Source: an uncultured virus (IMG/VR IMGVR_UViG_3300042691_048340)
Lineage: Duplodnaviria > Heunggongvirae > Uroviricota > Caudoviricetes
Virus record (IMG/VR): IMGVR_UViG_3300042691_048340
Length of the DNA stretch: 20,000 nt
Direction: 5' to 3' (one strand)
The notes beneath the pieces are model-generated. The model ran no database searches. It was given only the letters and a program-made list of their open reading frames with translations, and had not been told where the DNA came from. The first letter of the stretch is position 1, and the number at the start of each line of letters is the position of its first letter. Below, in pieces: positions 1,383-20,000 of the stretch. The translations under genes were made by a program, and so were the position numbers.

Positions 1383-1737
1383 TGTATTGTCCCACTATGT
1401 AGTACTTTAGCGGGTATGAGCACACCAGCCCCTTTATATTTCTGTATGCCGTGACATTATGATACTTGTTGGTCTGACCGCCGGCAGCACACATCCTTAG
1501 CTCCAGTCTTTCGATAAACTCAAACTCAGGTACGCTCTCCTTACTTCCTTTGAAGTAGCGGGTTATGAGCCCTAGTATAGTGGTTAGTTTTTTGTCGCGA
1601 AACAAGTCAGAGTCTTGCAACTCTTTGGCTATTTTTTCTGCATACACTAGTTCCCCTGTCTGCAAGGATGAGAAGTGCTTGAGCAAGCACTTATGGATGC
1701 TTTTGTAAAGATGATTTACATGGATTCTTCTTTTCAT
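1372..1737 (-). CDS. Small basic hypothetical protein, possibly DNA-binding, coupled to the helicase
   Basis: 121-aa Lys/Arg-rich ORF. It has a GAGGGG RBS just upstream (complement of cccctc, ~1743-1748), and its 3' end overlaps the helicase start by 11 nt. No family recognised. Confidence 0.65.
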   Translation of the reverse strand: MKRRIHVNHLYKSIHKCLLKHFSSLQTGELVYAEKIAKELQDSDLFRDKKLTTILGLITRYFKGSKESVPEFEFIERLELRMCAAGGQTNKYHNVTAYRNIKGLVCSYPLKYYIVGQYSDD

Positions 1738-1782: not shown

Positions 1783-1840
1783 TTTTTTTCTAAAAATAAT
1801 AGAATGCCAGTCCTGGAAACATCTATTCTCACCTTAAGTA

Positions 1841-1873
1841 TTGATATCACTTGAGGACGTGCGTAATATACGC
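1841..1873 (+). promoter_or_regulatory. Sigma70-like promoter for the giant TMP gene, with an overlapping palindrome
   Basis: TTGATA (1841-1846), a 17-nt spacer, then TAATAT (1864-1869). The inverted repeat GCGTA-ata-TACGC (1861-1873) overlaps the -10. An AGGTGG RBS lies at 1900-1905 before ATG 1912. Confidence 0.45.
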
Positions 1874-1911
1874 TAATACAGTGAAAATAGGCTCTTAGCA
1901 GGTGGAAAAAT

Positions 1912-4900
1912 ATGAGTACAGATAGCACGATGGTTGTCAGTATCAAGTTTATAGCTGATACGGGTGATGCAACAAAAGCGAACAATGAGTTAATCGAGTC
2001 TCTAAAAAGTATAGCCGAGTCTATCAGAGGTACAGCAAACCGTGCCGCAAGTGCATCTACTGCAGCCGTTAGCGGTGCTAAAGAAGCAACAAGCGCATAT
2101 AAGCAAACTGCCGAAGAAGTTAAAAAACAAGGCGGCTTACTGAGTGGTATAAGAGAAAAAATCGCGGAAGTAAATAAGAGTTTAAAAGAGTTTGGTGAAA
2201 GTATTGCAAACAAAATCAAATCTTTAAAGGATTTAGCGTTGGGCTTTAATGCTCTCAAAGAGGCTGCATCTACGTTCCTAGATCCGCTTGCAGAAGCACT
2301 TGAAAAAGTTATCGATCAAGGCATCGAGTTTAGTGCTCAGATGCAAAAAATCATGACGATATCTTTCAGGGGCTTAGACACGTTAAAGGCTGGCCCCGGC
2401 ATGGAAGCGACGAAAGATATGAAGATAGACTTGGACTCGTTTAAGCTACAAATGAGTGACTTCTACCGTGAGTTAGCAGTTAGTCGCGGTCGTAACGCTG
2501 ATATAGTAGCCGAGGCTGGGGAAAATCTGGCCCGCGCGGGCTTTAATGCGGTTGAAAATATGAAGATTCTTCCGTCGTTGATGGACTTGACAACGGCTAG
2601 TGGAGCACAGTTGGGCCAAGTTAGCGAAGTTGTAGCAAATAACATGCGAGCACTTGGGTATGCTGCATCAGAGGCTGGGAAGCTTACTGATATGTTTGCG
2701 AAAACCACCTTCATTTCTAACACAAAAATACACGACTTGGAGGACTCTCTTAAGTACATTGCGCCCGTGTGGCGCTCTGCAGGACATTCTACGCACGAAC
2801 TTCTGGGCTCACTAGCCCTACTAGCTGACTTGGGGACGAAAGGTAGTCAAGCTGGTACTTCACTTCGCCAAGCACTGCTCCGCCTTGCTATCGAACCCAA
2901 GAGAACTGAACAGGGTATGAAAGCACTAGGGGTATCGATAGAAGAGTTGGGCGCTAAGGACATGGAACACTTAAAACACCAACTGTCTGATGCCGCCGCC
3001 GCCATGAAAGAAATAGGAGTTGAGACCGAAACTTTAGGTAAGGATGGGAAGCGGCAAGTCAAACCCTTTATCGATCTCATGGAAGAGATGGAAGAGAAGC
3101 TCTCAAAAATGGGGACGGGCTACGACAAGATTGGACTCATTGGACGTATCTTTGGTACTGAGCCGTCCTCAGCCATGCTTGACCTCATCGTTAACGCTAA
3201 AAAAGTTACAACAACGGATAAGCAAACAGGCAAAAGTACGACGTCATCTACGCTACGAAGTATGATAGAACAGATAGACGTAGCACAAAAGGAACATACT
3301 TCCAAAAACACTGCACTGATGATGTCAGATACGTTGGAAGGCGACTTAAGGCGCTTTAAAGCGGCATCCATGGATATGGGACTTACGTTCTACTATGCCG
3401 TTGAAAAAATGTTTCGGCAAATAACACAAACTGCCACAAGCACTGTTAAGGGCATACTTGTTTTTCTAAAGACCGCTGGCAGCGGCATAGCCGACGCCTT
3501 TTACCCACTTATTGTCGCCGTACAAGAAGCATTCGGCCCACTCATGGATAGCTTAGGGGACTTTTTCCATAAAACGCCGGGTAAGGCAACTATGGCATTT
3601 GGCAGCGCGACAGAAGCTGCTAAGTTTTTTGGCCAAGTTGTTGGCCAACTTGCTACCCTTGTTCTCACCCCCCTTATAGAGGGGTTTAAACTAGTATCCG
3701 TAGTATTAACTCCCACTGTAACTGCATTTGTAGGTGTTGGCAAAGCGATAGGGGAGACTGTGGGTGAGGTGAGTATGCGCTTTGGTCAACTCACCGAAGC
3801 CGGGTCTAAACTGTCAGGTTTCAGTGCGTTTTTGCAAGCTACTCGAGATAGTGTCGGCGGGTTTCGTGATGCATTAAATCAGTCATGGGCAGGACTAGGA
3901 GATGTACTTGCCGCTCCTTTTGAATTTTTCACAAGTGGCTTTGAGGCTGGAATTATCAGTGGATTGAGTAACTTAGGGGGTGCTATATCAGATATTGTTT
4001 TTGGTATCATCACTATGGCACTGAGCCCCCTCAAACTCGCTATCCCCGCTGACTGGGTCGACGGTGCAATCAGCGGTTTAAATACTCTCAAGTCCTCCCT
4101 TGAACCCATCACCCCGTTGCTAGGGGGATTGGCCGTTGCCGCTGGACTCGCATTCCTACCCCTGCTAAACCCTCTCCCTGTTATATTGGCAGGAATGCAG
4201 GGTTTAAAGGCATGGATAACGTCCATTAATGCAAGCTTAACAGCAACTAGTGTTTCGGCAGGCTTGGCATCGGGTGCTTTAACAAAGTTACAAGTAGCTG
4301 CCAATTTGGCAGGTGCAGCTTTCGCCGGTTGGTCTGTAGGAACTTACTTATGGAACCAGTTTGAACTGGTTAGAGTTGCCGGCTATGAAGCAGTTAGTGT
4401 GTTTTTGGAAGGCTTTGAAAACTTAAAATATGCTACGCAAGTCTTTACTGTTAGCGCAGCTATCTACTTTAGCGAGCTAAGAGACAGTTATAGCGGTGTC
4501 ATGACCGATATCTTTTCGGTCAGTACAGTACTACTTGGAAACTTAAACAAGGGCTGGCTATATATGAGTAGCTCGTTTGCTAGTGTTATGCAAACTATGC
4601 AAGGAGTATGGCAGTCGTTTGTGGCGTACTTATATGAGAAGTTGGCTAGTATAGTTGATAAGCTGGCAGGTCTGACGGGAAGCGTGGACTTTCTCCCGGG
4701 TATGGGCGATATGTCTTCCAAGTTGCAAGGTTTCTCGATGAGTTTAGGTATAGCTGCAACACAAGCTAAAGCAGCAACACTTGCAACGGTTGACTACAAC
4801 GAAGAGTATAAGAAGCAAGTACAAAGCATCGATAGTGCAGTTGAGTCTCAACTGGAAAGTATCGCCGCCAGTACTAAAGCTGGGGCGGCCAATGAGCAGT

Positions 4901-7900
4901 TGGCTAAAAGCTTAGCCACTGCCGCTGATGAGCGAGAACGCAACATAAAGCTTATAAAAGAAAGTCGTGCTGAGTTAGTTAAAGAAGCGGCATCACCAGT
5001 TACTCCTCAACGTCCTAAAGCTATAACGTATGGCTCGGAACTAGATGTCTACCAACACCTTCCCCATCATACCGAAAGCGAAGGGGATATAAATGCAAAG
5101 CAGCTTATAGCCGACCAAAAAGCCAAGGACATGGCTGCTAAAAAAGCAGTAGCAGATGCAAGAAAAGAGGCACTGCGAGAAGAAAAAAACGAGTACCGGG
5201 ACCATGCGAAAGAACTGACTGATATTGCACAAAAACAAGCTGAGTCCATAAAAGACGCTGCCAAAAGTCAGAGTGACTTTATAAAACAAAGTGCAGAGTC
5301 GCAAGTGGAGTCGCTAAAGTCCTTATCTGAACGTATGAAACAGGCAGCTAAAGAAGCCAAAGAAGTTGCCGATAAGCTAAAAAAGGACTATGACGAACTC
5401 ACTAAGCTACGTAGTGAACTCGGTGCGTCCGGTTTAAGTGAGCGTGAGAAAACGGTATATGCTGCCCACACATCGGAACAAGGTACTAACTACGGAGCTG
5501 TCATAGCGCAAAGTAAAATGCTTACTTCTGCTAACCAAGAGCTAACCAAAGCAAAAGAAGAGCTAACAAAGGCAACGCTATCGGAAACAGACGCCAAGTT
5601 GTTTGACCTCCAGTTAAAGTACCCAGATGCCATAGCGGCCGAAATCTTTCAGATGCAGGAGTTAGCTAAACAAAAGAAAGCGTCTGTCGACTTAAACAAG
5701 CAACTTGAGGGGGCTAGTCTTAGCTCAAAGCAAAACGAGTACGTAGAACTTATGCGTAAAGTTGGTGTGGAAGAAGCGTCTCGTTATGTCCGTCAAAAGC
5801 AGCTCATAGATCAACAAACTGAGTTAAAGTCTAAGGCGGAGTCTTACTGGAGCATGGCCAGCGACAAAGCCGCTGAGTACTTTGAAAAGTTTCGCAGTGG
5901 GCAACTCTCCGCAAAAGAGAGTCTAAAAGGTTTCTTTAGCGATATGGCTAAGGAACAGCAAAAGGCTGCTATGGACACTGCTAAAAAGCAGTTTTTAGGT
6001 TTATTTGGCTTAGATAGTGGGGCTAACAAAGAAGCTCAAGTACAAAAAGACTTGAACAAGGCGGCTTCTTTTTTGGCGGACTCAAATAAGTCAGTTGTTA
6101 ATGCCTCTAAGGATGCATCCGGGACTATAGCCAAGGCTATAGTTGATGCCGGTGAAAGACTAAGTGGTGTAGTAAGTCGTTTGGGAACTGATGTTAGCAA
6201 GGCTTTTTCTGACACTAAGTCGCTAGAAGTTGGGGCTGACATGATAAGCAAACACGCCGAAAGCTTAAAGAGTGCAGCCGATAAACAGGCCGAGGCTATA
6301 CGCGAGTCGGCTGACAAACAAGCCGAAGCAATACGTGATGCTGCAAGGGAACAGGCTGATGCACTAAAACAAGAAGCCCGCGACGTGGGTCATAAGGGTG
6401 CGCCAGAAACAACTCACACTTCTGGTGCGACGTCCGAAGTAGCAAAGTCTAGTAAAGAGCTAGTGTCCGCTAACCAGAAGTACGTCAAGGTCACGGATGA
6501 GGTAGCCTCTGCACTAGAGGGGGCTGCCAAAAAGTTTAACTATAGCCTTCTTGAGTTAAGCCGCATGGCATCTTTGGAGTCTGCATTTGATGCCAATATA
6601 AAGAATTTTTCTGGATACATGGGCTTGTTTCAGTTTAAAGGCGCAGCCTCAAAAGAGGTTGGAATAAGTGGTAAGGAGTATGACCCCAAGGCGGCGGCTG
6701 AAGGAGCTATCAAATACTGGGAAATAAATAAAAAAATACTGGATAAATTTAGCAAAGACTGGCGTGAAACTGCCGAAAAAATGAACATCAACGAGGGGTT
6801 GATGGCGTGGATGGCTCATAACCAGGGGGCTGGCGGCCTGAGTCAAGTTCTTAAAACGCTAACAACCGGCGTAAACCAACTTAGTAGTGACGTTACGCGA
6901 AATATCAAAAACAACTTAGTTGGAGGGGCTGGAAAGGAACTTAGTGGGGTTGCACTAGCTGAAAGGTACATGGAGGGTTGGATAGCTAAATGGAATAATT
7001 TACCTCTCCCTTCCCAGTTCAAAGACGACTTTCAGAGTGAGGTCGGCAAAGGTGTCATAGAACTTACGGCAAAAGCGAGCGAGGAGTCTAGCAAAGTTGT
7101 TGCTAAAACAATGAGTTCTAGTCCAGTTGATAAAGGCACTATATTGGAAGATAGTACACTTGACGTACTGTCCGAAACAACTAATAAGTACATCCAAAAA
7201 GGTGTGTCTTACGAGTTGGGTGCAAAAAACATCGAACTAGGGAAGATAGACTGCAGCGGTTGGGTCAACTTACTCACGAAAACGGCTTTTGAAAATATCA
7301 ACAAACAGACTGGACAAGTGGTGTTTGATAACTCTGACATGAAGCTACTTCAAAACTCCAGCCATAACATCATCCAAAGTATAGTAGATAAGACCGGCGT
7401 GTTGCTCGATAGTCGTAAAACGAGTAACTTTAAAGGACAGCTAAAAGAAGGCATGATGATAGGACTTGACAAGGGAGATCACGGTTGGGACAGTGGGCGG
7501 GTGCGAGCGGGAAGTGACGTCGATAGAAACATCGACCACATCGTGCAGGTAACAGTGGATAAGCTTAGCGGAAAACTAGGCATCTCAGAGTCTCGTAGTG
7601 TCCGGCAAAATGGTGAACAAAGAGGGGGTGTTACATGGACTGAACTGGATAAGTGGTTGAGCCAAAATAAGAAAGCAACCATGTTTGCTACCGAGCCTTT
7701 CAAGCTTGCCGCTAAAGATATCCAAAAAGCCTTCTCTGAAGTATCGGTGGCTGCCAAAAGTCAAGTCGGTGCGATAGCATCCCAAAAACAGGCTACCGCT
7801 GCCTCAACAGAAGCGGCTAAGGCGCAAGTCACAGCTCAACAAGAGTTGGCTGAAGTCGAGGCAACTCTAAGTGCAACAAAGCTATCTACGGCGGCTTCTC

Positions 7901-10900
7901 ATGAACAGGCTATGGCTGCAGTAGAGGCAGCACGAAGGACTAGCATGACACAAGACGCTACTGCTATAGCAGAGCACGCTTCCAGTACTCAAGTAGCAGG
8001 AAAGGGTATCGTTTTAGTGGCTGAGCAGGCTACAAACGAAGTAGCTAGTGTGGCACAACAAGCCAAGGAAGGTGTGGCACAAGCTACCACTCGGTGCATA
8101 AGCGAAAGTACTACTAGTGAGGGGGGAGGGGTAAGCAAAAACACGTTTGGTGGCATACTCAACTTTTTTAAAGGAGGCGACGATAAGGGTGGTGGTGGAT
8201 TTTTATCGTCTATAACAAAGGGACTCAGTAGCTTTTTTAAAGGAGGAAAGGAGGGAGGTGATAAGCCTAGTGGCGTACTTTCATCCATCGGCACTTTTTT
8301 AAGTGGCGAAGGCAACTTGACGGGTAAGCTACAAAAAAGTTTAGGGGGGTTGTTGGGAGGGAAAGGCATGAGTGAACTTACGTCTAGCCTAAGTAGCCTT
8401 ACTGGCTCTATGGGTTCTTTTGGGAAAGGTATAAGTACGTTGTTGGGAGGTGGTTCCACGCCCGGCATGAGTGCCCTCTCGTCCGTGACTTCACTTTTGG
8501 CTGGCGATATGGCCGGGGCTGCCAGCGGAGCTGCCCAGTTACTAGGCTCCATGACTCCTTTAGGGCCACTCGGAGGAATGATAGCTGGCCAGCTAACGTC
8601 TATGCTTGGTATAGGGGCTAAGTGGGTACGTGAGGCCGAGTGGGTAGAAGTTTCCATGAAAGGTATGTCGGCTTCTTTTGGTAAAGGCTATAAGGAAGTC
8701 AAAAAAGGACTGCTTGGCGGCTCCAAAATGGGTCATGAGTCACTGGATGATGCCAGCGTTAAGAAGCTAAGTGACATGTTGGGAGAGACTAAAAAGTCCA
8801 TAGAAGCCGTAAGTGCCTCGCTAGGTATGGACAAAAACGGTCTCTTAGGGAAGATGGAGAACTTTCGTTACCATATCGCTGCTATGGAAAACAAAGGCTC
8901 CGAGTGGTTTGATAAAGCTTTTGAGAAGATGCGTGTCATGATGGTTAAGTCGGCGGTTGATAACATCATGATTGCGGGCGAAGACATCAAAACAAACCTT
9001 GGTGGGGGCTTTAAAAACACGTTTAAACAAGTTTTAGATGGTACGTTTAACGAAGTTGCAAGAGCGGAAACTTGGGACGGAGTCCTAACCAAGTTTGTTG
9101 CGAGCGCGGACAGCGCAGTTAAAGGTGGGTTACAAGATGACGTATCTGGCAAGCTAGGAGAGCGTCTAACTGACTTTGTAAACGCTTCCGCTGAACAGAT
9201 AAAGACTATGCCAGTGGATGAGTTGCAAAACGTCCTCACGGGCGAAATAGGCAAGATATTTACCGACATAACCGGCGTTGCCATACCCGAGTCGATAACC
9301 GGTGAGTTAGCAAGCGTGTTTGCAACCCGAGTCCAGGATGCTGTTAAACTTGCCGCTGGAGAAGATGTGGCGGGTAAAACGGTTATAAAAGATACTGGGG
9401 AGGTAAACTTTTATAAGACGTTGAAGTCAATGGTGGCTAGCTTTGAGGGAACGGAACAGGAACTTAGCGCGTTTGTTGGGAAGATGATGGAAACGAAAGA
9501 TATTTTTAAACAAACCGGCCTTAGTATGGGCGTATTTTCCGAGTCTATGGTTACCAGTTTTGGTGATATGGATAGATTTAGCGCGTCTTTAGGCTTCTTT
9601 AAAGAAAATTTTGCAACAGTGTCAACCACTAATATCGAATTTGCCAATAGCCTAGCCACTCTAAATGCTTCTTTAAAACAGGTACAGTTGCAAGCCTTGC
9701 CAGGCGTTAACACCGCGTTTCCTAAAACACGTGAGGAGTTCTTTAAGCTTGCCCAGTCTGTTTCTGAGCTTGGAAAAGATGGTGAAGCAACGTTTAGCAC
9801 GCTCCTTAAAGGAGGTCCTCAGTTTGCCAGCTACTACAAGGCTATCGAGGAGTTTAATCAAAAGTTTGGTAGTGCGACTGGCAACTCTCTTAAAGTGCAG
9901 GCCAAGAACACATCTGAACTTACCCAACTGCTAAACGACTCCTTTAAAAACCTAGGCTTAGAGGTGCCTAAGACCCGTAAGGAGTTGTTTGAACTGGTTC
10001 AGGGCTTTGACTTAACAAACAACTCACAACGCAAGTTACATGACTCTATACTTGAGCTAGCTCCCGCGCTTGATGGCTTGTACATCAACTCGGAACAAGT
10101 AGACAAGTTTAGAGAGTCTATGCAAAGTATCTACGATACTTCTGGAACTACTGAAAAGACTCTAGTAAACCTGAGTAAAGAGTTTCCCAACCTAAGCTTA
10201 GGGGCTGGTGTGCTCACGCTAAATGCTAAAGAAGCGGCGCGGCAACTTGCAAGCATGTCAACTAGCGAACTCATGACATGGGCTGAAAATATGGGCATGG
10301 TTGGACTTTCTATAGAAACCATAACACAAAAGACTTCAGAGTACCTGGGTGCAGTGGCTGAACTACAGGACAAGATGTTTAGCAACATCAACGCTGACTC
10401 GTTGGGCGGAGATCTGATGAAGGTGCTTACGGACGCTAACGTTGGTTCCGCTGCAGAAGCGGGGAGAATGTTTGCAGCCAACTTCACCAACCAGTTTTAC
10501 AACCAACTGGTTGGCACCGTCCTGAATGGTGTCATGCAAACAGTGTACGAGGGAATCGTAAGTCCGTTCTTGTCTTCTTCAGCACAAGCAGCTCTAAATA
10601 TGACTGAAGGAGGTGCTATGGCGGGGGCTAATCTTGCGCAAGGTGGCAACATATCTGCTAGTAGTACAGCCGCTGGTGGGAGTATGGCTGGAACGGCTAT
10701 GGCAAGTGGCGGAATGCTTGCTGGTGACGCCCTGGCTAAAATAGTAAGTGAGGCCGTTGATAAAGTGAAGATGATGGGTCAAATAATGAACGACCCGGCA
10801 ATGAAAGAAGCTTTAAATACTTTGACGGGTGGACTACAAACAGTTGGTGAAGCCGCCTTCAATGCCACTCCTCAACTTAGAAGCGAAGTCAGGACTGATG

Positions 10901-13900
10901 TTAGCCAAAGTAGTAGTCCCACTAGCCAAACCGGCTATGAGGACTCAAGTCGTCGCACAATAGAACCGGATGTAAGTAGAGATGAAAGTAGGGAAATTCT
11001 TAAGGAAGTAAATGAGGATGTGAAAAATAGTAGAGAAGAGCTAGTCAAGTTGATGTCAGACTTTACAAAAAGCTTAAGTGAACTTAGTAGCGGCTTAGAA
11101 GGGAACGCTAAAGTACTTGCTGAACTACGAACTACTTACCGTGACACGACGTCTACGCAACTACTGGCCAGTAGCTCTTCCGCTGATATGATACAACAGC
11201 TAAAAGCTCTTTCACAAAACCAACTTGAAGATATGGCTGCTGCCGCCGGCGTCGAAGTATCCAAACTAACGAGTGACTTACTTGGGCTTGTTGATATGAC
11301 AAAACAGTCTGAAAAGACCATGAGTGAGTTTAGGGAAAAGATGGGGGAAATAGCGGGAACAGAACCAAAATCAAAGAAACTCTCTGAGTTACATGACAAA
11401 ACTATTGGGGCGCTTAGTGAGTCTAGTATCAGTAAGTTACGTGAAAAACTGAGTGCTCAACAAACGGAAGTTTCTTCCTTAGCCTCTAAGCAGAAAAGCG
11501 TAAAGTCTGATGCCGAAAAGAGTATCGTGGAGCTAGTAGAAAGCAGTAGAGAGTCCAGCTTTCTTTACCTTAAGAGTCTCAAGAAACAACAAGGAGGTAA
11601 GCTGTCTAGTAAGTCGCAACGCGAACTTGAAGAGTATAACCACGAAGCTTATGCTACTCGTGTTGCTCAACTCGATAGTTTAAATAAAGCCACTCAAGCC
11701 TCTATTACAACACTAACCGCCGAAATTGCGGTTAAAGAGGCTGGTATCGCTGCTACTAAAGTTAGTATCTCAACACTTGAAAGTGTGGCAGCCACTTTCG
11801 CTGACACATCTGCAACTTCAGCAGAGTTGGCAACTTCACTTGCTAGTATGGATGACTCAACACTTAAGACGCTAGCGGATAGCTTAGGCGTAACTGTTGA
11901 GCAGTTTACCAGCAATACCGAAGAGTATATCAACCTTCTTAAGGCGCGAGAAGAGAGTGTTAAGTCAGTTCGCGACTCCTTACAAGAGTTTGCTAGCCCT
12001 GAAAAAACAGGAAAACAGCAAGTGCTAAATGAGTTAGGCTCAGTGTTTGCAGACTTAGGCCTGGCAGCTAAAGCAATGACGCTAGATACGAAAGAGGCTG
12101 CTAAAGCAATGCTATCAATGCCAGATGAGAAGCTCATTGCTTTCGCAGAACAGTACTCCTTAACTACCGACCAACTAAAAGAAAAAACAACAGCTTACTT
12201 CGGAGCTGTAAATGAGCTACAACAAGGCATGGATACATGGCGTGGCAAGATGGAGCAACTTGTTACAAGCGAGTCTGATGCTAGCTTAAGTACTAAGAAT
12301 TTGGCACAAAAAAGCCCATACTTAAGCGAGCTTACGCAAGGCATGGACTCTAAAGCTATGGCAAAAATGTTTAGTGGCTTGGATAGTGCCAAACTCGAAC
12401 AACTAGCCGCAAAGTATGGTGTCAGCCTCGAAAAATTTGAGGCTGACACGGAGCTGTGGGTAAGTAGTACAAAGGCTATAGAAGAAGATACCAAGGCTGC
12501 GGCGCAAAGCTTTATAGGCTTTAGGGACAGCCTGCTACTAACGAGTGGCTCACTGACTGAAAATGAGATAACTTTAAGGAACTTGGCTACCAAGTATCCA
12601 ATGTTGTCCTCTACCATCAACGACTTTTCCCTTACTGCCAAGGAAGCCGCTGAACGCTTCAATGCCTTATCGGATGACGAGCTAAAAGCACTTGCCTCGT
12701 CACTGAAAGTAGACTTAGACACGCTCAAAACCGATGCTGGAACATGGTTGGGAGTGGTGAAGAGTCAAGACGAAATGTTAAAGGAAAACACCAAGTCTAT
12801 TAAAGACTTTCAAGCTAGTATGCGTAAAACGGCTGAGGTTGCTAGTGAGTCTAGCATAACACTGGAGGAGTTGACTGCTAAGTACCCAGAACTGTCCTTA
12901 ACTATCAACAACTCATCACAGACAGCCAAGGAAGCCGCAAGCCGCTTTGCAAGCATGGATATAGACTCTCTTATGAGTCAGTTAAGTGTTTCCCCAGAAA
13001 AACGCTCTGAGTTTTTAGCCGATGCCCAAGCCTGGGTCGGAGCTTTAGCCGCCAACGACGAGGCAATCAAAACCAATAAGGAGGCAATGTCAAGTTATAC
13101 GGATACCATGTTAAAGGCAACGGGAACGTATGGGGAGAATGATATTGCGCTTAAAAATCTGACCGCCGCTTACCCGCTTATGGCAAGCACGATAAACGAC
13201 TCGTCCATAACTGCTAAAAATGCAGCTACTTACTTTGCTAGTTTGAGTGACACAGAATTTGACTTGCTAGCCAAGTCGCTGAACAAGAGCACAGAAGAAC
13301 TGCGCACAAATAGCACCGAGTGGGTGACTGCTATGGCTGCCAACGAAGAGTTATTTAACACGTTTCATGGGAAGATGCTAAAGCTCAAAGAAGGCATGAG
13401 TGACAACGCCGCCGTACTAGAGGAACTTAAAGCAAAGTATCCTGCTTTAGCTGTCTCCTTGTCAAAAACGGGAGTAACCGCCCAAGAAGTTAGTAACTAC
13501 TTTGAAAGTATGAATATGCAGCAAGTTTCTGACTTGGCCAAGTCTCTACATGTTAGTACGGAGACACTAGTAGCCGATGTAGATAGTTACATAGGCGTGT
13601 TGAGTGCCCAAACCGAGGAGTTAAAGGCTCAAACTGAAAAACTCTCCTCTTTCAAAGAAGAAATGTCTAAGTTTGGTATCACAGCCTCAGAAGCGGAGTT
13701 GGCTACGAGTAAGCTTTCTGAGCAGTTCCCAGAGTTGCTTGTAAGTATGCAGTCGCTTGGTGGTAACTCTAAGGAGGTAGCTGCTAAACTAGCCAAACTA
13801 GACGACAAACAACTACTTAGTATGGCAACAGCTAGCAAAGTAAGTACGGATAAGTTTTTAGAGAGCGCTACTAGCTATGTTACTAGTCTCGCGGCGCAAG

Positions 13901-16900
13901 AAGAGGAAACGAAAGCCGCTATAAGTAGTGTGCAGGGGATGCAAGCTGAGTTTAAAAAACTTGCTAGTGGGGTAAGCGATGCTCAATATACTGTAGACAA
14001 CTTAACAGCCAAGTACCCACACTTACTCCAAAGTATGGGACTTACTGGAAAGTCGGCGGATGATGTAGCCAAAAAGCTAGCAGGCATGAGTCCTGAAAAG
14101 CTCGTAAACATCGCTAAAGGTCTGGGGGTTTCTACTGATACTTTTGTGGGGGAAATAACTGGCTATGTAAGCGCTCTGAAGACGTTAGGTGATGAGGCTA
14201 AAGCTATGACTGACTCTTTAAACTCCTTTAAAGGGGAGATGGATAAGCTGGGCTCGTCGCTTACTGACAACGAGTACACACTCAACAGTGTTACAAAGAG
14301 CTTTCCACAGCTTACGGCAAACCTGAGTAGCCTTGGTTCTACATCTCAAAGTATAGCAAAGTCTTTGGCTGGTATGAGTACTGGACAACTGAGTGCAATG
14401 GCTAAACAAGCGGGAGTGTCAGTTGACGAGTTTACTAGTAACAGTAAGGCTTACATCGATGCTATGAAAGTAAGGGAGGAAAGCATCAAACAAAGTCAGG
14501 AACAGGCGCTACAGGACGCTAAGGAAAACCAGGATAAGTTGATGCAAACAATCGATAACTACTTCACTACTTTCACTCAACTAAGCGATAAGCTTGCTGG
14601 TGTTTCAAACAACTTAGCTAAGGACATATCCGCTTATGATACTGAAGAACAAAAGCTAGAAAAGCGTCGTAACCGCATGTCAGAACTAGAGTCTAGTATC
14701 AACTCGCTTAACTCCTTTGGACTCGATAACGAGAAGGCAGTATCTAAGACTATCGAGGACTTAGATGAATATCGTGGCCTAATACTTGAGGAAACCGAGC
14801 AAAAGATAGAGTTAGTTAAAAAGGAGCAAGAAGCTGCCCAGAAGGCGCATGATGATACCATAGCCGCCTTGAAAGAAAGTCTCTCTAAAGTACAAGGAGT
14901 CATATCTTCTGTATCGAGTGACATTGAGCGGCTAAATGAGGAGTTAAAACAAGGTCAGTCTAAAACTACTGCTCGTGATACTTTGAAAACAACGTTCACG
15001 AAGTCGCTAACAGACTCAACTAAGACAACGAATGAAAGGATTGACTTAGCCTCTCAGTACCGGGAGGCTATAGGGAACGCACTTCAAGAACAGCTAACGG
15101 CTCTCGATAAGAGTAGAGATGAGGCAATTGCCAACCTCGAAAAAGAGCGTGACGCTAAGATCAAACACTTTGAGGAAGTGCAGGATGCCGCGAAAAAGCT
15201 CCAAGAGTCGGTGACTAAACTTAGAGAGTCGATAAGTTCGATGAGGCAGTCCATACAAGCTGATATGGAAAACTTGGCAAAGGATATGGGCTTACCAGGG
15301 ACAACAGCGACTGAAAAACTTATGGCACTGCAAAACCAAGTTAGTGCCAATATGCCAGCCAGTGAAGATAGTATTAAGAAACTAGAGACTTACAAAGCCC
15401 TCGTCATGGAGTCTCTTGCTGAACAAATTGATAAGGAAAACAAACGTTTTGAGGAAGTTAAAAAGACTCAAGACGCTCAACGTGAGCACTACAAAAAGCT
15501 TATTGACTTTTCCAAAGAGTTAAAAGGTTTTGTCGATAACTTAAAGCTCGGGGATATGAGCTACTATAACCCACAACGCCGCTTAGAAGAGGCGAAACGT
15601 CAATATACTCAAGTACTTGCGTTAGCTAAAAGTGGTGATGAACAAGCTATGAGCGAGGTTACGGGAAAAGCTCAGGCCTATTTAAAAGAAGCCCAAACTT
15701 TCTATGCATCATCGGATGACTACACGAAGATATTTGACGACATAAACGCAAGTATGGAGGGCATGAAGCTTACCGCCGAAAGTGAAGCAAAAAAGATTGC
15801 TCAAAACTTGCCTTTGGATGAAACAGAGACCGCAAAAAATATCGCCAGTATTGTTCCCTTACAGCAAGCGGCTATGGAAAAGCTAAAGTCTGTAGACGCT
15901 CTCTTGGCATCAATGGATACTACCCTACAGAACCCGAGTGCCTCACCCATGCCGGACGAGCAGTTTAACAGCATGTTAGACTCCGAAAAGCAAAACTTTG
16001 ATAAGCTCATCGAGGCTCAAAAACAGAGTAGTGTTGATACTGGAAACAAGCTTAGAGAAGCCGCCAAGTCCGAGCTACAAACGCTAAATAGCTCCCTACT
16101 AAACCTCCAAACCGGCTTAGAGGAAAGTAGTAGTGCCAAGTTCGATGATACCGTTTTTGCAAATCAAATCACCGGTTTGCAACAAGCGTCTGTACAACAA
16201 CTCATGGAGCTAGGCCAATATATCATCGCAATGGATGCGGGCGTGAAAGATAGTTTGAGTCAAAACGTAGGTGCGTTGATGAGCCAACTTTCTCCAGAAA
16301 ATCAAGAAAAAGTGGCAGTTCAACTCGATGAGGCTATGCAAAGAAATATCACGGGCCCACTCAGGGAACTTATAGCTGCCGTTAAGGGAGAAAAAGTCAA
16401 CTCGGAAATCAAGTCTAAAGAGAAAGGTTTTAGCAACAACCAGACCGCTATTGACAATGCCTTAACCGCCTTTGCATCTTTTCGCGAGTTTGCCACAAAA
16501 AACAGTCTCAACGCCTCCTTTGAAGAGGTAGTTGATAAGCTTATTCCCTACATCAACAACACGTCAACTAACATGGAGGGTATAGCTAACGTTATGCGGG
16601 AACAGTTTAAGGTTACCTCAACTGAAGGACTTGGTAGCGTGATAAATCAAGTACTAAAAGACCGCAAAGACACTGCTTGGGAAAGCTTTTGGCCTAACTT
16701 CAGGGATGGTTACTTACAAACAAACAAAGAGTTACTTACTGCTTTTCAGGCTAAGCAAGATGACAAAAAGGCCATAGACCTCGCCACGTATCGTGAGTTA
16801 AATCTAGCTATCACTGGGCTTACGACTGGACTATCACAGCTTGGTTCCGCTACAGTCAATAAAGGTCGTACGGAGGCGGAACTATACGGTGCTATAGATA

Positions 16901-18081
16901 AACGTCCGACACAAGAGTGGATGACTGCAAAAGGAGTAGGCGTTAACATAGAGACTTACGAAGGTTTTCTAAAAGCCAAGGAAACACTAGATGCCTTAAA
17001 GAAAAGCCTTCTTGGTATCACCAGTTTAAAGGGTGAACTAGATGGTTTTAATGTCAAGTTAGCTGACACGAAAACTAGTTTCCAAGCCATTCCCAAGCTA
17101 GATATAGCCACTAACATAGCCGCTACAGTGCCAGTAAAAACGGCCAGTATTCATGACTATGTTGCGCAACTATCTCCACTGTCAGCAAGTACTACCAACC
17201 CCACTGCTAAGCCTGCTAGTACCGGTATCACTATCGGGGGGAATGTATCGACTAGTGGTGCTAAAGACATCGTTGTTAAGCTAGATGACTTGTTTGTTCA
17301 GTGGAAAGACCTAGCCAAAACATACCGAGACGAAGATATAAAAAACAGTGAAAAGTTAGATAAAGAGGCTATGGAACGGACGCTTAAGTGGCGGGACGAG
17401 GAGGCTAAGGCCAACTTAGCTGCAACTGAGCTAAAAACTCAACGCTGGTTAGCGTGGAGGACTGAGGAGGCTCTTTGGCGAAAAGAGGATGTAGCCACGC
17501 TAGCTTCACGTGACACTACTGCGCTTGCATGGCGAGAAGAGGATAAAAGTACCCTTCTTGCATGGCGGGTTGAAGATATTGCTTTTCAACAACTAAAGGA
17601 GGAGTCAGAGAAGCTTTGGTTTGAAAACATGCTCACTGCTATAAAGTCGATCCAAGTAACTGTCACGTTACCGACAAGCGCGTTACCGACAAGCGAAGAC
17701 AGGAGTGACTCTGTTGCTGGACTGGAGAAAAACAAGCCTAGTTTTGACGTTGGCAGTTCCTATGTTGAAAAGGACATGGCAGCTAAAGTCCATAAGGGGG
17801 AGATCATAATTGACTCGCAGTCCGCCGGCATACTTAGAAACTACGGTATACGACTGCAAACTAGGAGCGAGCAAGAGGAAAAAGCTACTACTACTGCTAG
17901 TAGTAAGCGTGTCGAAGAACTCTTAGCCGCACTGTTAGTAGAGTTAAAGATAAGTAACAGAAATAGTGATACGAGGGAGGCGCGTATCGTAGAAGCGGTG
18001 AATAACATGGAAAACACCATTGCTGCGCCTGTTGTTTCGGCTATAAAAAAAGGACAACAACCGACCATCATGCGCAAGTAG
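1912..18081 (+). CDS. Giant phage tail tape measure protein (TP901-type core) with internal lytic transglycosylase-like and NlpC/P60-like domains
   Basis: 5389-aa Ala/Ser/Lys/Glu-rich helical protein. N-terminal TP901/PhageMin_Tail core: AEAGENLARAGF...DLEDSLKYIAPV...LADLGTKGSQAGTSLRQALLRL...IFGTE...DTLEGDL (~2430-3380). Hydrophobic segments at ~3500-4450. PKTRxE repeats at 9721 and 9967. Motif LKLGDMSYYNPQRRLEEAKRQY..AKSGD at ~15540. C-terminal PSFDVGSSYVEKDMAAKVHKGEIII at 17737. Confidence 0.92.
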   Translation: MSTDSTMVVSIKFIADTGDATKANNELIESLKSIAESIRGTANRAASASTAAVSGAKEATSAYKQTAEEVKKQGGLLSGIREKIAEVNKSLKEFGESIANKIKSLKDLALGFNALKEAASTFLDPLAEALEKVIDQGIEFSAQMQKIMTISFRGLDTLKAGPGMEATKDMKIDLDSFKLQMSDFYRELAVSRGRNADIVAEAGENLARAGFNAVENMKILPSLMDLTTASGAQLGQVSEVVANNMRALGYAASEAGKLTDMFAKTTFISNTKIHDLEDSLKYIAPVWRSAGHSTHELLGSLALLADLGTKGSQAGTSLRQALLRLAIEPKRTEQGMKALGVSIEELGAKDMEHLKHQLSDAAAAMKEIGVETETLGKDGKRQVKPFIDLMEEMEEKLSKMGTGYDKIGLIGRIFGTEPSSAMLDLIVNAKKVTTTDKQTGKSTTSSTLRSMIEQIDVAQKEHTSKNTALMMSDTLEGDLRRFKAASMDMGLTFYYAVEKMFRQITQTATSTVKGILVFLKTAGSGIADAFYPLIVAVQEAFGPLMDSLGDFFHKTPGKATMAFGSATEAAKFFGQVVGQLATLVLTPLIEGFKLVSVVLTPTVTAFVGVGKAIGETVGEVSMRFGQLTEAGSKLSGFSAFLQATRDSVGGFRDALNQSWAGLGDVLAAPFEFFTSGFEAGIISGLSNLGGAISDIVFGIITMALSPLKLAIPADWVDGAISGLNTLKSSLEPITPLLGGLAVAAGLAFLPLLNPLPVILAGMQGLKAWITSINASLTATSVSAGLASGALTKLQVAANLAGAAFAGWSVGTYLWNQFELVRVAGYEAVSVFLEGFENLKYATQVFTVSAAIYFSELRDSYSGVMTDIFSVSTVLLGNLNKGWLYMSSSFASVMQTMQGVWQSFVAYLYEKLASIVDKLAGLTGSVDFLPGMGDMSSKLQGFSMSLGIAATQAKAATLATVDYNEEYKKQVQSIDSAVESQLESIAASTKAGAANEQLAKSLATAADERERNIKLIKESRAELVKEAASPVTPQRPKAITYGSELDVYQHLPHHTESEGDINAKQLIADQKAKDMAAKKAVADARKEALREEKNEYRDHAKELTDIAQKQAESIKDAAKSQSDFIKQSAESQVESLKSLSERMKQAAKEAKEVADKLKKDYDELTKLRSELGASGLSEREKTVYAAHTSEQGTNYGAVIAQSKMLTSANQELTKAKEELTKATLSETDAKLFDLQLKYPDAIAAEIFQMQELAKQKKASVDLNKQLEGASLSSKQNEYVELMRKVGVEEASRYVRQKQLIDQQTELKSKAESYWSMASDKAAEYFEKFRSGQLSAKESLKGFFSDMAKEQQKAAMDTAKKQFLGLFGLDSGANKEAQVQKDLNKAASFLADSNKSVVNASKDASGTIAKAIVDAGERLSGVVSRLGTDVSKAFSDTKSLEVGADMISKHAESLKSAADKQAEAIRESADKQAEAIRDAAREQADALKQEARDVGHKGAPETTHTSGATSEVAKSSKELVSANQKYVKVTDEVASALEGAAKKFNYSLLELSRMASLESAFDANIKNFSGYMGLFQFKGAASKEVGISGKEYDPKAAAEGAIKYWEINKKILDKFSKDWRETAEKMNINEGLMAWMAHNQGAGGLSQVLKTLTTGVNQLSSDVTRNIKNNLVGGAGKELSGVALAERYMEGWIAKWNNLPLPSQFKDDFQSEVGKGVIELTAKASEESSKVVAKTMSSSPVDKGTILEDSTLDVLSETTNKYIQKGVSYELGAKNIELGKIDCSGWVNLLTKTAFENINKQTGQVVFDNSDMKLLQNSSHNIIQSIVDKTGVLLDSRKTSNFKGQLKEGMMIGLDKGDHGWDSGRVRAGSDVDRNIDHIVQVTVDKLSGKLGISESRSVRQNGEQRGGVTWTELDKWLSQNKKATMFATEPFKLAAKDIQKAFSEVSVAAKSQVGAIASQKQATAASTEAAKAQVTAQQELAEVEATLSATKLSTAASHEQAMAAVEAARRTSMTQDATAIAEHASSTQVAGKGIVLVAEQATNEVASVAQQAKEGVAQATTRCISESTTSEGGGVSKNTFGGILNFFKGGDDKGGGGFLSSITKGLSSFFKGGKEGGDKPSGVLSSIGTFLSGEGNLTGKLQKSLGGLLGGKGMSELTSSLSSLTGSMGSFGKGISTLLGGGSTPGMSALSSVTSLLAGDMAGAASGAAQLLGSMTPLGPLGGMIAGQLTSMLGIGAKWVREAEWVEVSMKGMSASFGKGYKEVKKGLLGGSKMGHESLDDASVKKLSDMLGETKKSIEAVSASLGMDKNGLLGKMENFRYHIAAMENKGSEWFDKAFEKMRVMMVKSAVDNIMIAGEDIKTNLGGGFKNTFKQVLDGTFNEVARAETWDGVLTKFVASADSAVKGGLQDDVSGKLGERLTDFVNASAEQIKTMPVDELQNVLTGEIGKIFTDITGVAIPESITGELASVFATRVQDAVKLAAGEDVAGKTVIKDTGEVNFYKTLKSMVASFEGTEQELSAFVGKMMETKDIFKQTGLSMGVFSESMVTSFGDMDRFSASLGFFKENFATVSTTNIEFANSLATLNASLKQVQLQALPGVNTAFPKTREEFFKLAQSVSELGKDGEATFSTLLKGGPQFASYYKAIEEFNQKFGSATGNSLKVQAKNTSELTQLLNDSFKNLGLEVPKTRKELFELVQGFDLTNNSQRKLHDSILELAPALDGLYINSEQVDKFRESMQSIYDTSGTTEKTLVNLSKEFPNLSLGAGVLTLNAKEAARQLASMSTSELMTWAENMGMVGLSIETITQKTSEYLGAVAELQDKMFSNINADSLGGDLMKVLTDANVGSAAEAGRMFAANFTNQFYNQLVGTVLNGVMQTVYEGIVSPFLSSSAQAALNMTEGGAMAGANLAQGGNISASSTAAGGSMAGTAMASGGMLAGDALAKIVSEAVDKVKMMGQIMNDPAMKEALNTLTGGLQTVGEAAFNATPQLRSEVRTDVSQSSSPTSQTGYEDSSRRTIEPDVSRDESREILKEVNEDVKNSREELVKLMSDFTKSLSELSSGLEGNAKVLAELRTTYRDTTSTQLLASSSSADMIQQLKALSQNQLEDMAAAAGVEVSKLTSDLLGLVDMTKQSEKTMSEFREKMGEIAGTEPKSKKLSELHDKTIGALSESSISKLREKLSAQQTEVSSLASKQKSVKSDAEKSIVELVESSRESSFLYLKSLKKQQGGKLSSKSQRELEEYNHEAYATRVAQLDSLNKATQASITTLTAEIAVKEAGIAATKVSISTLESVAATFADTSATSAELATSLASMDDSTLKTLADSLGVTVEQFTSNTEEYINLLKAREESVKSVRDSLQEFASPEKTGKQQVLNELGSVFADLGLAAKAMTLDTKEAAKAMLSMPDEKLIAFAEQYSLTTDQLKEKTTAYFGAVNELQQGMDTWRGKMEQLVTSESDASLSTKNLAQKSPYLSELTQGMDSKAMAKMFSGLDSAKLEQLAAKYGVSLEKFEADTELWVSSTKAIEEDTKAAAQSFIGFRDSLLLTSGSLTENEITLRNLATKYPMLSSTINDFSLTAKEAAERFNALSDDELKALASSLKVDLDTLKTDAGTWLGVVKSQDEMLKENTKSIKDFQASMRKTAEVASESSITLEELTAKYPELSLTINNSSQTAKEAASRFASMDIDSLMSQLSVSPEKRSEFLADAQAWVGALAANDEAIKTNKEAMSSYTDTMLKATGTYGENDIALKNLTAAYPLMASTINDSSITAKNAATYFASLSDTEFDLLAKSLNKSTEELRTNSTEWVTAMAANEELFNTFHGKMLKLKEGMSDNAAVLEELKAKYPALAVSLSKTGVTAQEVSNYFESMNMQQVSDLAKSLHVSTETLVADVDSYIGVLSAQTEELKAQTEKLSSFKEEMSKFGITASEAELATSKLSEQFPELLVSMQSLGGNSKEVAAKLAKLDDKQLLSMATASKVSTDKFLESATSYVTSLAAQEEETKAAISSVQGMQAEFKKLASGVSDAQYTVDNLTAKYPHLLQSMGLTGKSADDVAKKLAGMSPEKLVNIAKGLGVSTDTFVGEITGYVSALKTLGDEAKAMTDSLNSFKGEMDKLGSSLTDNEYTLNSVTKSFPQLTANLSSLGSTSQSIAKSLAGMSTGQLSAMAKQAGVSVDEFTSNSKAYIDAMKVREESIKQSQEQALQDAKENQDKLMQTIDNYFTTFTQLSDKLAGVSNNLAKDISAYDTEEQKLEKRRNRMSELESSINSLNSFGLDNEKAVSKTIEDLDEYRGLILEETEQKIELVKKEQEAAQKAHDDTIAALKESLSKVQGVISSVSSDIERLNEELKQGQSKTTARDTLKTTFTKSLTDSTKTTNERIDLASQYREAIGNALQEQLTALDKSRDEAIANLEKERDAKIKHFEEVQDAAKKLQESVTKLRESISSMRQSIQADMENLAKDMGLPGTTATEKLMALQNQVSANMPASEDSIKKLETYKALVMESLAEQIDKENKRFEEVKKTQDAQREHYKKLIDFSKELKGFVDNLKLGDMSYYNPQRRLEEAKRQYTQVLALAKSGDEQAMSEVTGKAQAYLKEAQTFYASSDDYTKIFDDINASMEGMKLTAESEAKKIAQNLPLDETETAKNIASIVPLQQAAMEKLKSVDALLASMDTTLQNPSASPMPDEQFNSMLDSEKQNFDKLIEAQKQSSVDTGNKLREAAKSELQTLNSSLLNLQTGLEESSSAKFDDTVFANQITGLQQASVQQLMELGQYIIAMDAGVKDSLSQNVGALMSQLSPENQEKVAVQLDEAMQRNITGPLRELIAAVKGEKVNSEIKSKEKGFSNNQTAIDNALTAFASFREFATKNSLNASFEEVVDKLIPYINNTSTNMEGIANVMREQFKVTSTEGLGSVINQVLKDRKDTAWESFWPNFRDGYLQTNKELLTAFQAKQDDKKAIDLATYRELNLAITGLTTGLSQLGSATVNKGRTEAELYGAIDKRPTQEWMTAKGVGVNIETYEGFLKAKETLDALKKSLLGITSLKGELDGFNVKLADTKTSFQAIPKLDIATNIAATVPVKTASIHDYVAQLSPLSASTTNPTAKPASTGITIGGNVSTSGAKDIVVKLDDLFVQWKDLAKTYRDEDIKNSEKLDKEAMERTLKWRDEEAKANLAATELKTQRWLAWRTEEALWRKEDVATLASRDTTALAWREEDKSTLLAWRVEDIAFQQLKEESEKLWFENMLTAIKSIQVTVTLPTSALPTSEDRSDSVAGLEKNKPSFDVGSSYVEKDMAAKVHKGEIIIDSQSAGILRNYGIRLQTRSEQEEKATTTASSKRVEELLAALLVELKISNRNSDTREARIVEAVNNMENTIAAPVVSAIKKGQQPTIMRK
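6256..6380 (+). repeat. 11-aa (33-nt) tandem repeat in the TMP
   Basis: AESLKSAADKQ AEAIRESADKQ AEAIRDAAREQ ADALKQEA. A related copy, AESIKDAAKSQ SDFIKQSAESQ, lies at ~5239-5310. Confidence 0.8.
6481..7000 (+). other. SLT/lysozyme-like lytic transglycosylase domain within the TMP
   Basis: ALEGAAKKFNYS..LSRMASLES (putative catalytic Glu, codon 6577, residue 1556), GYMGLFQF, YDPKAAAEGAIKY and AWMAHNQGAGG match the ES / GLxQ / A(Y/H)NxG motifs of the SLT family. Confidence 0.85.
7186..7660 (+). other. NlpC/P60-like (papain-fold) cysteine peptidase domain within the TMP
   Basis: YELGAK...IDCSGWV (Cys, codon 7252, residue 1781), LKEGMMI, IDHIVQV (His, codon 7537, residue 1876) and GISES (Glu, codon 7588) follow the NlpC/P60 YxxG..DCSG..H..E arrangement. 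Confidence 0.72.
11790..14480 (+). repeat. Tandem protein repeats of about 96 aa in the TMP
   Basis: Recurring unit L-x2-K-(Y/F)-P-x-L...AKEAA..(F/L)A.(M/L)...L..LA...(G)VS...F......(W/Y). Anchor codons lie at 12043, 12310, 12592, 12880, 13168, 13435, 13723, 14011 and 14299, with spacings of 267, 282, 288, 288, 267, 288, 288 and 288 nt. Confidence 0.85.
17666..17695 (+). repeat. Perfect 15-bp tandem duplication (in frame)
   Basis: cgttaccgacaagcg occurs twice in tandem and encodes LPTSA-LPTSE. Confidence 0.9.
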
Positions 18082-18172
18082 CACATGTCTAAGTTCCAAA
18101 GCACCAACTAGTAAAAACAAAAGGTTAGGAAAGGGGGTAAGGTACCAGGGGCTAGGATGCCTATGTCTATCG

Positions 18173-18384: not shown

Positions 18385-18447
18385 TAGGCAAAACATCAAC
18401 AAGTTTTAGTCCAAGAACGCTAAGCAACTTGACTAAGTGTGCCACTG

Positions 18448-18586: not shown

Positions 18587-18994
18587 TTAAGTGCCTAGTT
18601 CCTTACTTAGTTCCGTTAAGATTCGCTCTGCTATTTTTTTACCTATACCCGGGATGGCAGTGAGGCGACTAACATCCTTCGTCTGAGTCGCTTGCGTGAA
18701 AGTCGTCAATTCCATCGCTGAGAGGATACTCAGGGCTAACTTAGGCCCCACCCCACTGACGCGAATAAGGCTGCGAAATAGTTGACGTTCCGCTTCACAA
18801 GTAAAGCCATATAGAAATAGTGAGTCGTCTCTTGTACTAACATGCACATAAAGATGAACTACTTCGTTTAAAGGAGGTAGTTGTTTGAAAGTTGATAGGG
18901 GTGCTTGGATATAGTAACCAACTCCTCCATTGACTTCGATGACTAAAAACGGTGGTTGCTTGTTGGTAAGTAAGCCGCGCAAGTGGTTAAACAT
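18587..18994 (-). CDS. ruvA: Holliday junction DNA-binding protein RuvA, C-terminally truncated (domains I and II only)
   Basis: OB-fold domain I: MFNHLRG...LVIEVNGGVGY...LYVHVSTRDDSLFLYGF. HhH domain II: ERQLFRSLIRVSGVGPKLALSILS and LTAIPGIGKKIAERILTEL. It stops at 135 aa, whereas RuvA is typically about 200 aa. Confidence 0.92.
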   Translation of the reverse strand: MFNHLRGLLTNKQPPFLVIEVNGGVGYYIQAPLSTFKQLPPLNEVVHLYVHVSTRDDSLFLYGFTCEAERQLFRSLIRVSGVGPKLALSILSAMELTTFTQATQTKDVSRLTAIPGIGKKIAERILTELSKELGT

Positions 18995-19998: not shown

Positions 19999-20000
19999 GA

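What the first reader, a model, noticed from the sequence alone, without database searches (positions are those of the whole stretch)
1912..18081. Extremely long (5389 aa) tape measure protein implying a tail of up to ~0.8 um
Seen: an uninterrupted 16,170-nt ORF with TMP hallmarks at both ends. Known: tail length scales at roughly 0.15 nm per TMP residue, most TMPs are about 600-2000 aa, and the ~5000-aa TMPs of Thermus phages P23-45/P74-26 give tails of about 0.8 um. Inference: this protein is in or above that record class, even after subtracting about 350 aa of globular enzyme domains. It may belong to a very long-tailed phage or tail-like machine adapted to a thick sheath or envelope.
Basis: partly seen in the sequence, partly recalled or inferred. 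Interest (0 to 1): 0.8.

Follow-up and report, generated by a model that had tools for sequence, protein, structure and literature searches.

The report
Giant tail ruler, sulphur-bacterium phage
This 16-kb gene is the tail-length "ruler" of a small uncultured freshwater phage, probably one of filamentous sulphur bacteria; it and two longer relatives predict flexible tails of about 0.75 to 1.2 micrometres, at or beyond the longest measured, though nobody has seen the particles.

Summary
The 5,389-aa ORF is real: it is identical in another assembly and on 7 contigs. It is a TP901-family tape measure protein (PF10145, TIGR01760) with a lytic transglycosylase, an NlpC/P60-like domain and 11 tandem ~90-96-aa repeats. 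It belongs to an ~82-kb phage. Two near-complete relatives carry colinear rulers of 7,052 and 7,676 aa (26-28% of the genome), a full siphophage tail set and no sheath. All three keep a -1 frameshift chaperone pair. All six regions sampled show purifying selection. Predicted tails: 0.70-0.86 µm here, 0.94-1.23 µm in relatives, against about 0.8 µm for P23-45. It is not a record: it is the shortest of its clade, unrelated 6,155-6,198-aa rulers exist, and this scan found 6,290-7,494-aa rulers before on other DNA. New points: the mid-protein has relatives in 4 of 55 genomes of the order holding Beggiatoa, against 0 of 250 sampled Gammaproteobacteria at E<1e-10. A cultured Beggiatoa prophage has the same tail module with a 2,811-aa ruler, which allows calibration. 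Tail length, host and the sheath idea are unproven.

The parts
1912..18081 (+). Tape measure protein gene, 5,389 aa (19.6% of an 82,480-bp contig)
1900..1905 (+). Ribosome-binding-like site AGGTGG, 6 nt before the ATG
   Evidence: read; function inferred
2293..3465 (+). TP901-family tape-measure core (TIGR01760 aa 128-518; PF10145 aa 193-415)
3649..4197 (+). Hydrophobic, membrane-like segments (aa 580-762): 4 stretches here against 12 in each longer relative
   Evidence: channel role inferred from TP901-1 (PMC5099701, passages)
6520..6852 (+). Lytic transglycosylase (SLT) domain, aa 1537-1647; Glu1556 and the G-L-x-Q motif are kept in all three orthologues
   Evidence: (26.5 bits, cut-off 21.3); motif roles recalled
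7120..7760 (+). NlpC/P60-like peptidase domain, aa about 1737-1949; Cys1781 and His1876 invariant in three orthologues
   Evidence: Atlas features 0.93-0.95 to NlpC/P60 and CHAP clusters, with a DUF1989 cluster scoring as high; no Pfam hit
8629..10071 (+). Conserved middle block of no known family (83% and 65% identical in the relatives); has relatives in Beggiatoa-order prophages
11638..14619 (+). Tandem array of 11 diverged ~85-96-aa repeats (aa 3243-4236); 14 units in each relative
17740..17880 (+). C-terminal conserved motif shared with other tape measure proteins
   Evidence: (53% to P0085)
117..1382 (-). PIF1/Dda-like helicase, divergent from the ruler gene; same arrangement in G002 and G003
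1372..1737 (-). 121-aa ORF of no family, conserved upstream of the helicase in G002 and G003 (28-31%)
18587..18994 (-). Short RuvA (135 aa, covers 134 of 202 model positions), lying where the relatives have the hub gene
19234..20000 (-). Type ISP restriction-modification specificity domain; differs between assemblies

Best explanation
It is the working tape measure protein of an ~82-kb non-contractile-tailed phage, probably temperate and plasmid-like, and probably infecting filamentous sulphur bacteria of the order that holds Beggiatoa. Shown: family, intact frame, selection, companion genes. Inferred from lambda, TP901-1 and P23-45: G/GT-type chaperones coat the extended, mostly helical chain; its C-terminus sits on the hub/Dit tip; PF18906-type tube rings polymerise along it to about 0.75 µm (range 0.70-0.86). 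On infection the chain is ejected, the transglycosylase and NlpC/P60-like domains cut peptidoglycan, and the hydrophobic N-terminal segments form the DNA channel. Length in the clade is tuned by gain and loss of an N-terminal hydrophobic block and of ~90-aa repeats.
For: Family hits above cut-off. Tube gene: PF18906-like by Atlas, feature score 0.95 and TM 0.70/0.90. Chaperone pair: in 3 of 3 phages the -1 frame from an A-run at the end of gene 1 is open for 150 aa and stops exactly at the end of gene 2. An intact 585-aa hub (P0058) is on 12 contigs, the longest 82,480 bp; portal and head genes are on the same contig. In G002 and G003 the hub and Dit-like genes follow the ruler. No sheath family PF04984 and no tyrosine integrase PF00589 in 4 of 4 records, 2 of them over 90% complete; a ParM-like actin is present. 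pN 0.10-0.34 against pS 0.75-0.95 in 6 of 6 regions, 12 of 12 comparisons. Ruler rule 0.145 nm per residue (PMC5099701, passages). P23-45: 5,002 aa with a fused polymerase still gives 800 nm (bioRxiv 10.1101/2022.12.01.518664, passages). Host: alignment A6 hits 4 of 55 genomes of the order at E<1e-10 against 0 of 250 in the class sample (Fisher p 0.001); A4 hits 3 of 55 against 0 of 250 at E<1e-9. Named relatives are from Beggiatoa leptomitoformis, Beggiatoa sp. IS2 and Thiotrichaceae bacterium IS1. RuvA scores best in that order (E 8e-48, against 6e-42 for the best other genome).
Against: No particle has been seen. In the window the ruler is cut off from the other tail genes: 14,038 bases from the chaperones, and followed by RuvA and type ISP, not the hub. 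A second, internally deleted tube gene lies between, which could mean decay in this lineage. I saw only about 40 of the 82 kb of this phage. Both structure predictions failed (pLDDT 34 and 36), so an extended helix was not shown. The capsid alignment found nothing in GTDB genomes or in the 55 genomes of the order. None of 10 short DNA hits lies in a CRISPR-like array. KamA's best hit was 57%, outside the order. The control covered one class only, and filamentous bacteria of distant phyla swap genes (PMC6390638, passages). The E-value thresholds for the host tally were chosen after seeing the results; at E<=0.001 the counts are 4 of 55 against 1 of 250 (A6) and 4 of 55 against 4 of 250 (A4).
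Confidence: 0.62

Rival explanations
1. It is a true tape measure protein, but only part of it measures. The ~90-aa repeats and coiled stretches fold back on themselves or are cleaved off, or the C-terminal half is ejected cargo, so the tail is much shorter (about 0.3-0.5 µm).
For: The repeats have a regular helix-turn pattern with a conserved K-Y-P-like turn. SMC-like coiled-coil hits lie at aa about 3790-4490. Similar 11-residue-period stretches occur at aa about 1080-1136 and 1434-1489. An earlier scan note (e1-5778051, unchecked) proposes fold-back hairpins in tape measure proteins. No cultured phage matches aa 2240-4170, so there is no calibration.
Against: TP901-1 is described as straight and fully extended. 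P23-45 keeps 0.16 nm per residue with a large enzyme in the full-size protein. The tube lumen is about 4.5 nm in P74-26, which leaves little room for bundles (inference).
Confidence: 0.25
2. The window's element is a decaying or domesticated plasmid-prophage whose ruler gene no longer builds virions.
For: Scrambled tail gene order, a broken second tube gene, a short RuvA and captured host-type genes.
Against: The 16-kb frame is intact on 7 contigs. Hub, tube, chaperones with frameshift, capsid and portal are intact.
Confidence: 0.08
3. The ORF is an assembly chimera of two genes.
For: No read-level check was obtained. One cluster member (P0004) carries a 19-residue in-frame insertion. Some assemblies may come from one sampling campaign.
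Against: Zero mismatches with a second assembly, no long DNA repeats inside the gene, and end-to-end colinearity with two orthologues whose synonymous sites are saturated.
Confidence: 0.02

Closest known systems
Thermus phage P23-45 gp96 (5,002 aa, 800-nm tail) and P74-26 gp95 (tail nearly 1 µm, called the longest known)
   Same: Giant single-chain ruler with enzyme and membrane domains in a non-contractile tail (bioRxiv 10.1101/2022.12.01.518664, passages; PMC10034513, abstract start and passages; PMC9022992, passages).
   Different: No D-x-D-G-D polymerase motif in 3 of 3 proteins. It has SLT and NlpC/P60-like domains in place of polymerase and metallopeptidase. It is 8% longer, and its relatives are 41-53% longer. 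Freshwater, probably a Gram-negative filamentous host.
TP901-family tape measure proteins (PF10145 / TIGR01760)
   Same: N-terminal core, hydrophobic segments, repeats, muralytic domains.
   Different: About 3 to 8 times the usual length (medians 650-1,868 aa by repeat class in PMC13585406, parts 1-2 of 5 read; its supplement could not be read). Best cultured-phage matches are only 25-28% over the N-terminal core.
Prophage of Beggiatoa leptomitoformis with tape measure protein WP_062152176.1 (2,811 aa)
   Same: Same module: Mu-like portal (38-40%), gpF, protease, gp36, terminator, tube (31%), chaperone, hub (26-28%), Dit-like gene; the ruler is similar in blocks at 23-27%.
   Different: Integrated, compact and in normal gene order; half the ruler length; TMP_3 (PF20155) core in place of PF10145. 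I found no paper describing it.
Lambda G/GT tail assembly chaperones
   Same: Two overlapping chaperone frames joined by a conserved -1 slippery A-run (lambda mechanism recalled, chaperone role in PMC10034513 passages).
   Different: They lie 14 kb or more from the ruler gene in all three phages, not directly upstream.

Membership tests
Siphophage tape measure protein (TP901 family) | PF10145 / TIGR01760 core above curated cut-off | tested here: met
   114.9 against 33.2 bits; 101.6 against 28.8 bits
Siphophage tape measure protein (TP901 family) | Long, low-proline chain with hydrophobic segments and internal repeats | tested here: met
   Pro 1.6%, 4 hydrophobic stretches, 11 repeats
Siphophage tape measure protein (TP901 family) | Extended alpha-helical conformation | tested here: inconclusive
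   Only aa 1500-1960 was folded, pLDDT 36
Siphophage tape measure protein (TP901 family) | Gene lies between the chaperone genes and the Dit/hub genes | tested here: not met
   Window: flanked by helicase and RuvA; chaperones 14 kb away. In G002 and G003 the hub follows within 140-309 bases, chaperones still distant. Gene order is typical of the family, not what defines the protein.
Siphophage tape measure protein (TP901 family) | Tube, G/GT chaperones, hub and head genes in the same genome | tested here: met
   a Dit-like gene and terminase were seen only in G002 and G003
Siphophage tape measure protein (TP901 family) | No contractile sheath | tested here: inconclusive
   PF04984 absent in 4 of 4 records, 2 near complete; one family only, and half of the window's own phage was not seen
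Siphophage tape measure protein (TP901 family) | Tail length proportional to protein length | not testable with these tools
   needs electron microscopy
P23-45/P74-26 ruler-polymerase fusions | N-terminal two-barrel RNA polymerase with a DFDGD motif | tested here: not met
   no D-x-D-G-D in 3 of 3 proteins; no polymerase family hit
Phage-plasmid (non-integrating temperate phage) | Partition system present, integrase absent, circular genome | tested here: inconclusive
   ParM-like actin in G002 and G003; PF00589 absent; G002 ends overlap by 145 bases, G003 ends do not; serine integrases and repressor not searched

The most novel reading that the evidence does not exclude
A clade of small (~82-kb) plasmid-like phages of giant filamentous sulphur bacteria spends a fifth to over a quarter of its genome on the ruler and builds flexible tails of 0.75-1.2 µm, the longer ones exceeding any measured tail, in order to reach cells through sheath or slime. 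This would parallel the giant rulers that this scan noted in phages of filamentous cyanobacteria and would point to host envelope depth as the driver of extreme tail length.
Probability: 0.27. Interest if true: 0.82.

Novelty: new variant of a known kind. Interest (0 to 1): 0.56.

Why it matters
What limits phage tail length, and why a few tails are extreme, is open; the measured upper end rests on Thermus phages. This clade offers a natural series in one protein family (2,811, 5,389, 7,052 and 7,676 aa), with length changed in identifiable blocks and with one member in a cultured bacterium. The ruler rule can therefore be tested at its extreme and linked to host envelope. My searches found no paper on tailed phages of Beggiatoa or Thioploca (9 papers listed, none on this subject by title or abstract start) and none reporting such ruler lengths. 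The library lacks most subscription journals. PMC7162821 mentions phage proteins up to 7,694 aa, some tentatively structural (passage); its supplements were not seen.

Tried and rejected
No whole genome is held for the window, and the 82,480-bp contig could be read only over its last 18,655 bases. No read-level assembly check was obtained; contiguity rests on assemblies. No RNA holder was listed, which says nothing about expression. AlphaFold models of the tube (pLDDT 34) and the enzyme block (pLDDT 36) were too poor for a fold search, so none was run. A PDB sequence search gave only a weak match to another tape measure protein (9b45, E 0.17). Length ranking is a floor. One search gave 7 hits among 3,764 candidates of 3,874-12,327 aa and missed both P0001 and the 7,676-aa protein. 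One search scored 1,081 candidates and gave 2 hits. The repeat profile gave 50 hits in 1.84 billion proteins; of the 14 scanned, 7 carry a tape-measure domain, 3 have no family and 4 are unrelated (ankyrin, TPR, coiled coil). Host searches that led nowhere: capsid alignment in GTDB, KamA, beta clamp against plasmids (36.7-40.2% in the 15 of 591 records listed), RuvA in viral contigs, short DNA hits as spacers (0 of 10 in arrays). Promoter scan before the gene: 2 sites against 1.5 expected, not informative. The Nostoc plasmid ruler cited in earlier notes did not appear among the 40 of 222 rows listed, so it is unchecked. Rejected: a tailocin or gene-transfer-type machine as the main reading (replication, head and tail genes sit together on ~82-kb contigs); hidden antisense genes (115-443 stops); 'SMC protein' (far below cut-off). 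G147 and G045 are unpublished genomes; they count only in the 250-genome denominators.

Full report
Observation. The ORF at 1912-18081 (+) encodes 5,389 aa without a stop. It carries PF10145 and TIGR01760 well above cut-off. JGI contig Ga0315902_10000317 (82,480 bp; L004) is identical over window 1794-18081 but differs in the type ISP gene downstream, so it is a separate assembly or strain. The exact protein is on 7 contigs from three sources; one cluster member has a 19-residue in-frame insertion after aa 2052 and is otherwise identical. No read-level check was obtained.

Anatomy. Tape-measure core at aa 128-518. Hydrophobic segments at aa 580-762. SLT domain at aa 1537-1647 with Glu1556. An NlpC/P60-like domain at aa about 1737-1949 with invariant Cys1781 and His1876, supported by Atlas features but not by Pfam. 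A conserved middle block of no family at aa 2240-2720. Eleven tandem ~85-96-aa repeats at aa 3243-4236. Coiled-coil-like C-terminal part with a conserved end motif.

Genome. The neighbours in the window are not tail genes: a PIF1 helicase upstream, a short RuvA and a type ISP domain downstream. Overlapping IMG/VR records G001 and G005 (99.98% over 4,019 bases) extend 19.7 kb upstream. They hold protease, decoration, capsid, adaptor, tube, chaperone pair, portal and gpF genes, then KamA, a sigma-54 activator, a second deleted tube gene and two ATPases. The tube has no Pfam or PHROG hit but is PF18906-like by Atlas features and structure. An intact hub homologue is recorded on a contig of 82,480 bp. 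About 40 of 82 kb were seen.

Relatives. The portal search gave two near-complete genomes, G002 (81,363 bp, ends overlap by 145 bases) and G003 (83,384 bp). Their rulers are 7,052 and 7,676 aa, 26% and 28% of the genome, and are colinear with the window protein. The extra length lies in a hydrophobic N-terminal block and in three more repeats (14 against 11). Both genomes have terminase, Mu-like portal and head genes, terminator, tube, chaperones, ruler, hub (phrog_8917) and Dit-like gene (phrog_8610); a collar fibre gene was identified in G003. They also have a ParM-like actin, primase, beta clamp and sigma-54 activator. Neither has PF04984 sheath or PF00589 integrase. All three phages keep the -1 frameshift joining the two chaperone frames. 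Synonymous sites are saturated while amino-acid change is low in 6 of 6 regions sampled. A 2,757-aa fragment (P0083, 44%) and a fourth hub cluster (P0033) suggest more members.

Length. With 0.145 nm per residue and 127 non-measuring residues (PMC5099701, passages) the tails come to 763, 1,004 and 1,095 nm. Removing 450 enzyme residues gives 698, 939 and 1,029 nm. The P23-45 ratio of 0.16 gives 862, 1,128 and 1,228 nm. P23-45 has 5,002 aa and 800 nm; P74-26 is given as nearly 1 µm or over 800 nm. The window protein is therefore in that class but no record. One search found unrelated PF10145 proteins of 6,155, 6,192 and 6,198 aa among 7 hits, and earlier notes of this scan list 6,290-7,494-aa rulers on other DNA (unchecked).

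Host. RuvA scored best in one order of 55 genomes: 46-62% identity, best E 8e-48, against 6e-42 for the best other genome in a 250-genome class sample. That order was chosen from the RuvA result and then tested with ruler profiles. A6 matched 4 of 55 at E<1e-10 against 0 of 250; A4 matched 3 of 55 at E<1e-9 against 0 of 250. At E<=0.001 the class sample gave 1 and 4 weak hits in short frames. Two of the 10 relatives looked up carry organism names: Beggiatoa leptomitoformis, and Beggiatoa sp. IS2 / Thiotrichaceae bacterium IS1. The first is identical to an ORF in G266, where it sits in a compact prophage with homologous tube, chaperone, hub, Dit-like, portal and head genes. Against this: no capsid relative in those genomes, no spacer match, KamA uninformative, one class of controls only, and known gene flow among filamentous bacteria of different phyla (PMC6390638, passages). 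I put the host at about 65%. That Thioploca lives in sheaths appears in a reference title in that paper; that Beggiatoa lacks a common sheath is recalled.

Mechanism and rivals. Most likely the protein is a full-length ruler that is later ejected to cut the wall and form the DNA channel (0.62). The main rival is partial fold-back or processing that gives a shorter tail (0.25). Decay (0.08) and chimera (0.02) are poorly supported. Everything about conformation, tail length and purpose is inference; both structure predictions failed.

Verdict. It is a new variant of a known kind: an undescribed clade of small phages with 5,400-7,700-aa rulers, a probable host group for which I found no described tailed phage, and a cultured relative that makes the length rule testable. 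Interest 0.56, held down by the several similar giants already found and by the absence of any particle.

Noticed in passing
L001:2353-3309 (G001:8666-9622): Second tail tube gene with internal deletions. It shares a 155-base 100% identical stretch with the full tube gene and 75-85% elsewhere, which suggests recent duplication or gene conversion.
   Followed up: partly
window 18587-18994: RuvA lacking its C-terminal third, on 15 contigs and absent from G002 and G003; could act as a Holliday-junction binder or decoy.
   Followed up: partly
window 19234-20000 and L004:17441-18655: The type ISP specificity region differs between the window and L004 (60 mismatches and 4 gaps in the last 1,919 bases) while the ruler gene is identical; possible specificity switching.
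   Followed up: no
L003:5162-7581: KamA-like lysine 2,3-aminomutase (window's phage only) next to a sigma-54 activator that is conserved in all three phages; possible late-gene control through host sigma-54.
   Followed up: no
L012:771-2426 and L011:17955-19991 (G002): ParM-like actin with a small downstream gene, and an FtsK-like ATPase with an N-terminal hydrophobic stretch; plasmid-like segregation, perhaps relevant in filamentous hosts.
   Followed up: partly
P0089, P0090: Relatives of 3,176 and 4,119 aa carry a VgrG3-like C-terminal domain (PF21277) at about the place of the SLT domain: enzyme cassette swapping inside the ruler.
   Followed up: no
L013:2747-7126 (G002): Cobalamin adenosyltransferase, a 668-aa protein of no family that looks like a ribonucleotide reductase (recalled, untested) and a thymidylate-synthase-like fusion, clustered together.
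   Followed up: no
L011:12503-13468 (G002): WD40 repeat protein in a phage.
   Followed up: no
L022:4997-6496, aa about 130-243: The tube protein has an inserted ~110-aa domain that is missing from the second copy and probably from the 382-aa Beggiatoa tube; possibly a surface domain.
   Followed up: no
window 18082-18586: A 505-base gap without a convincing gene follows the ruler gene; not examined.
   Followed up: no
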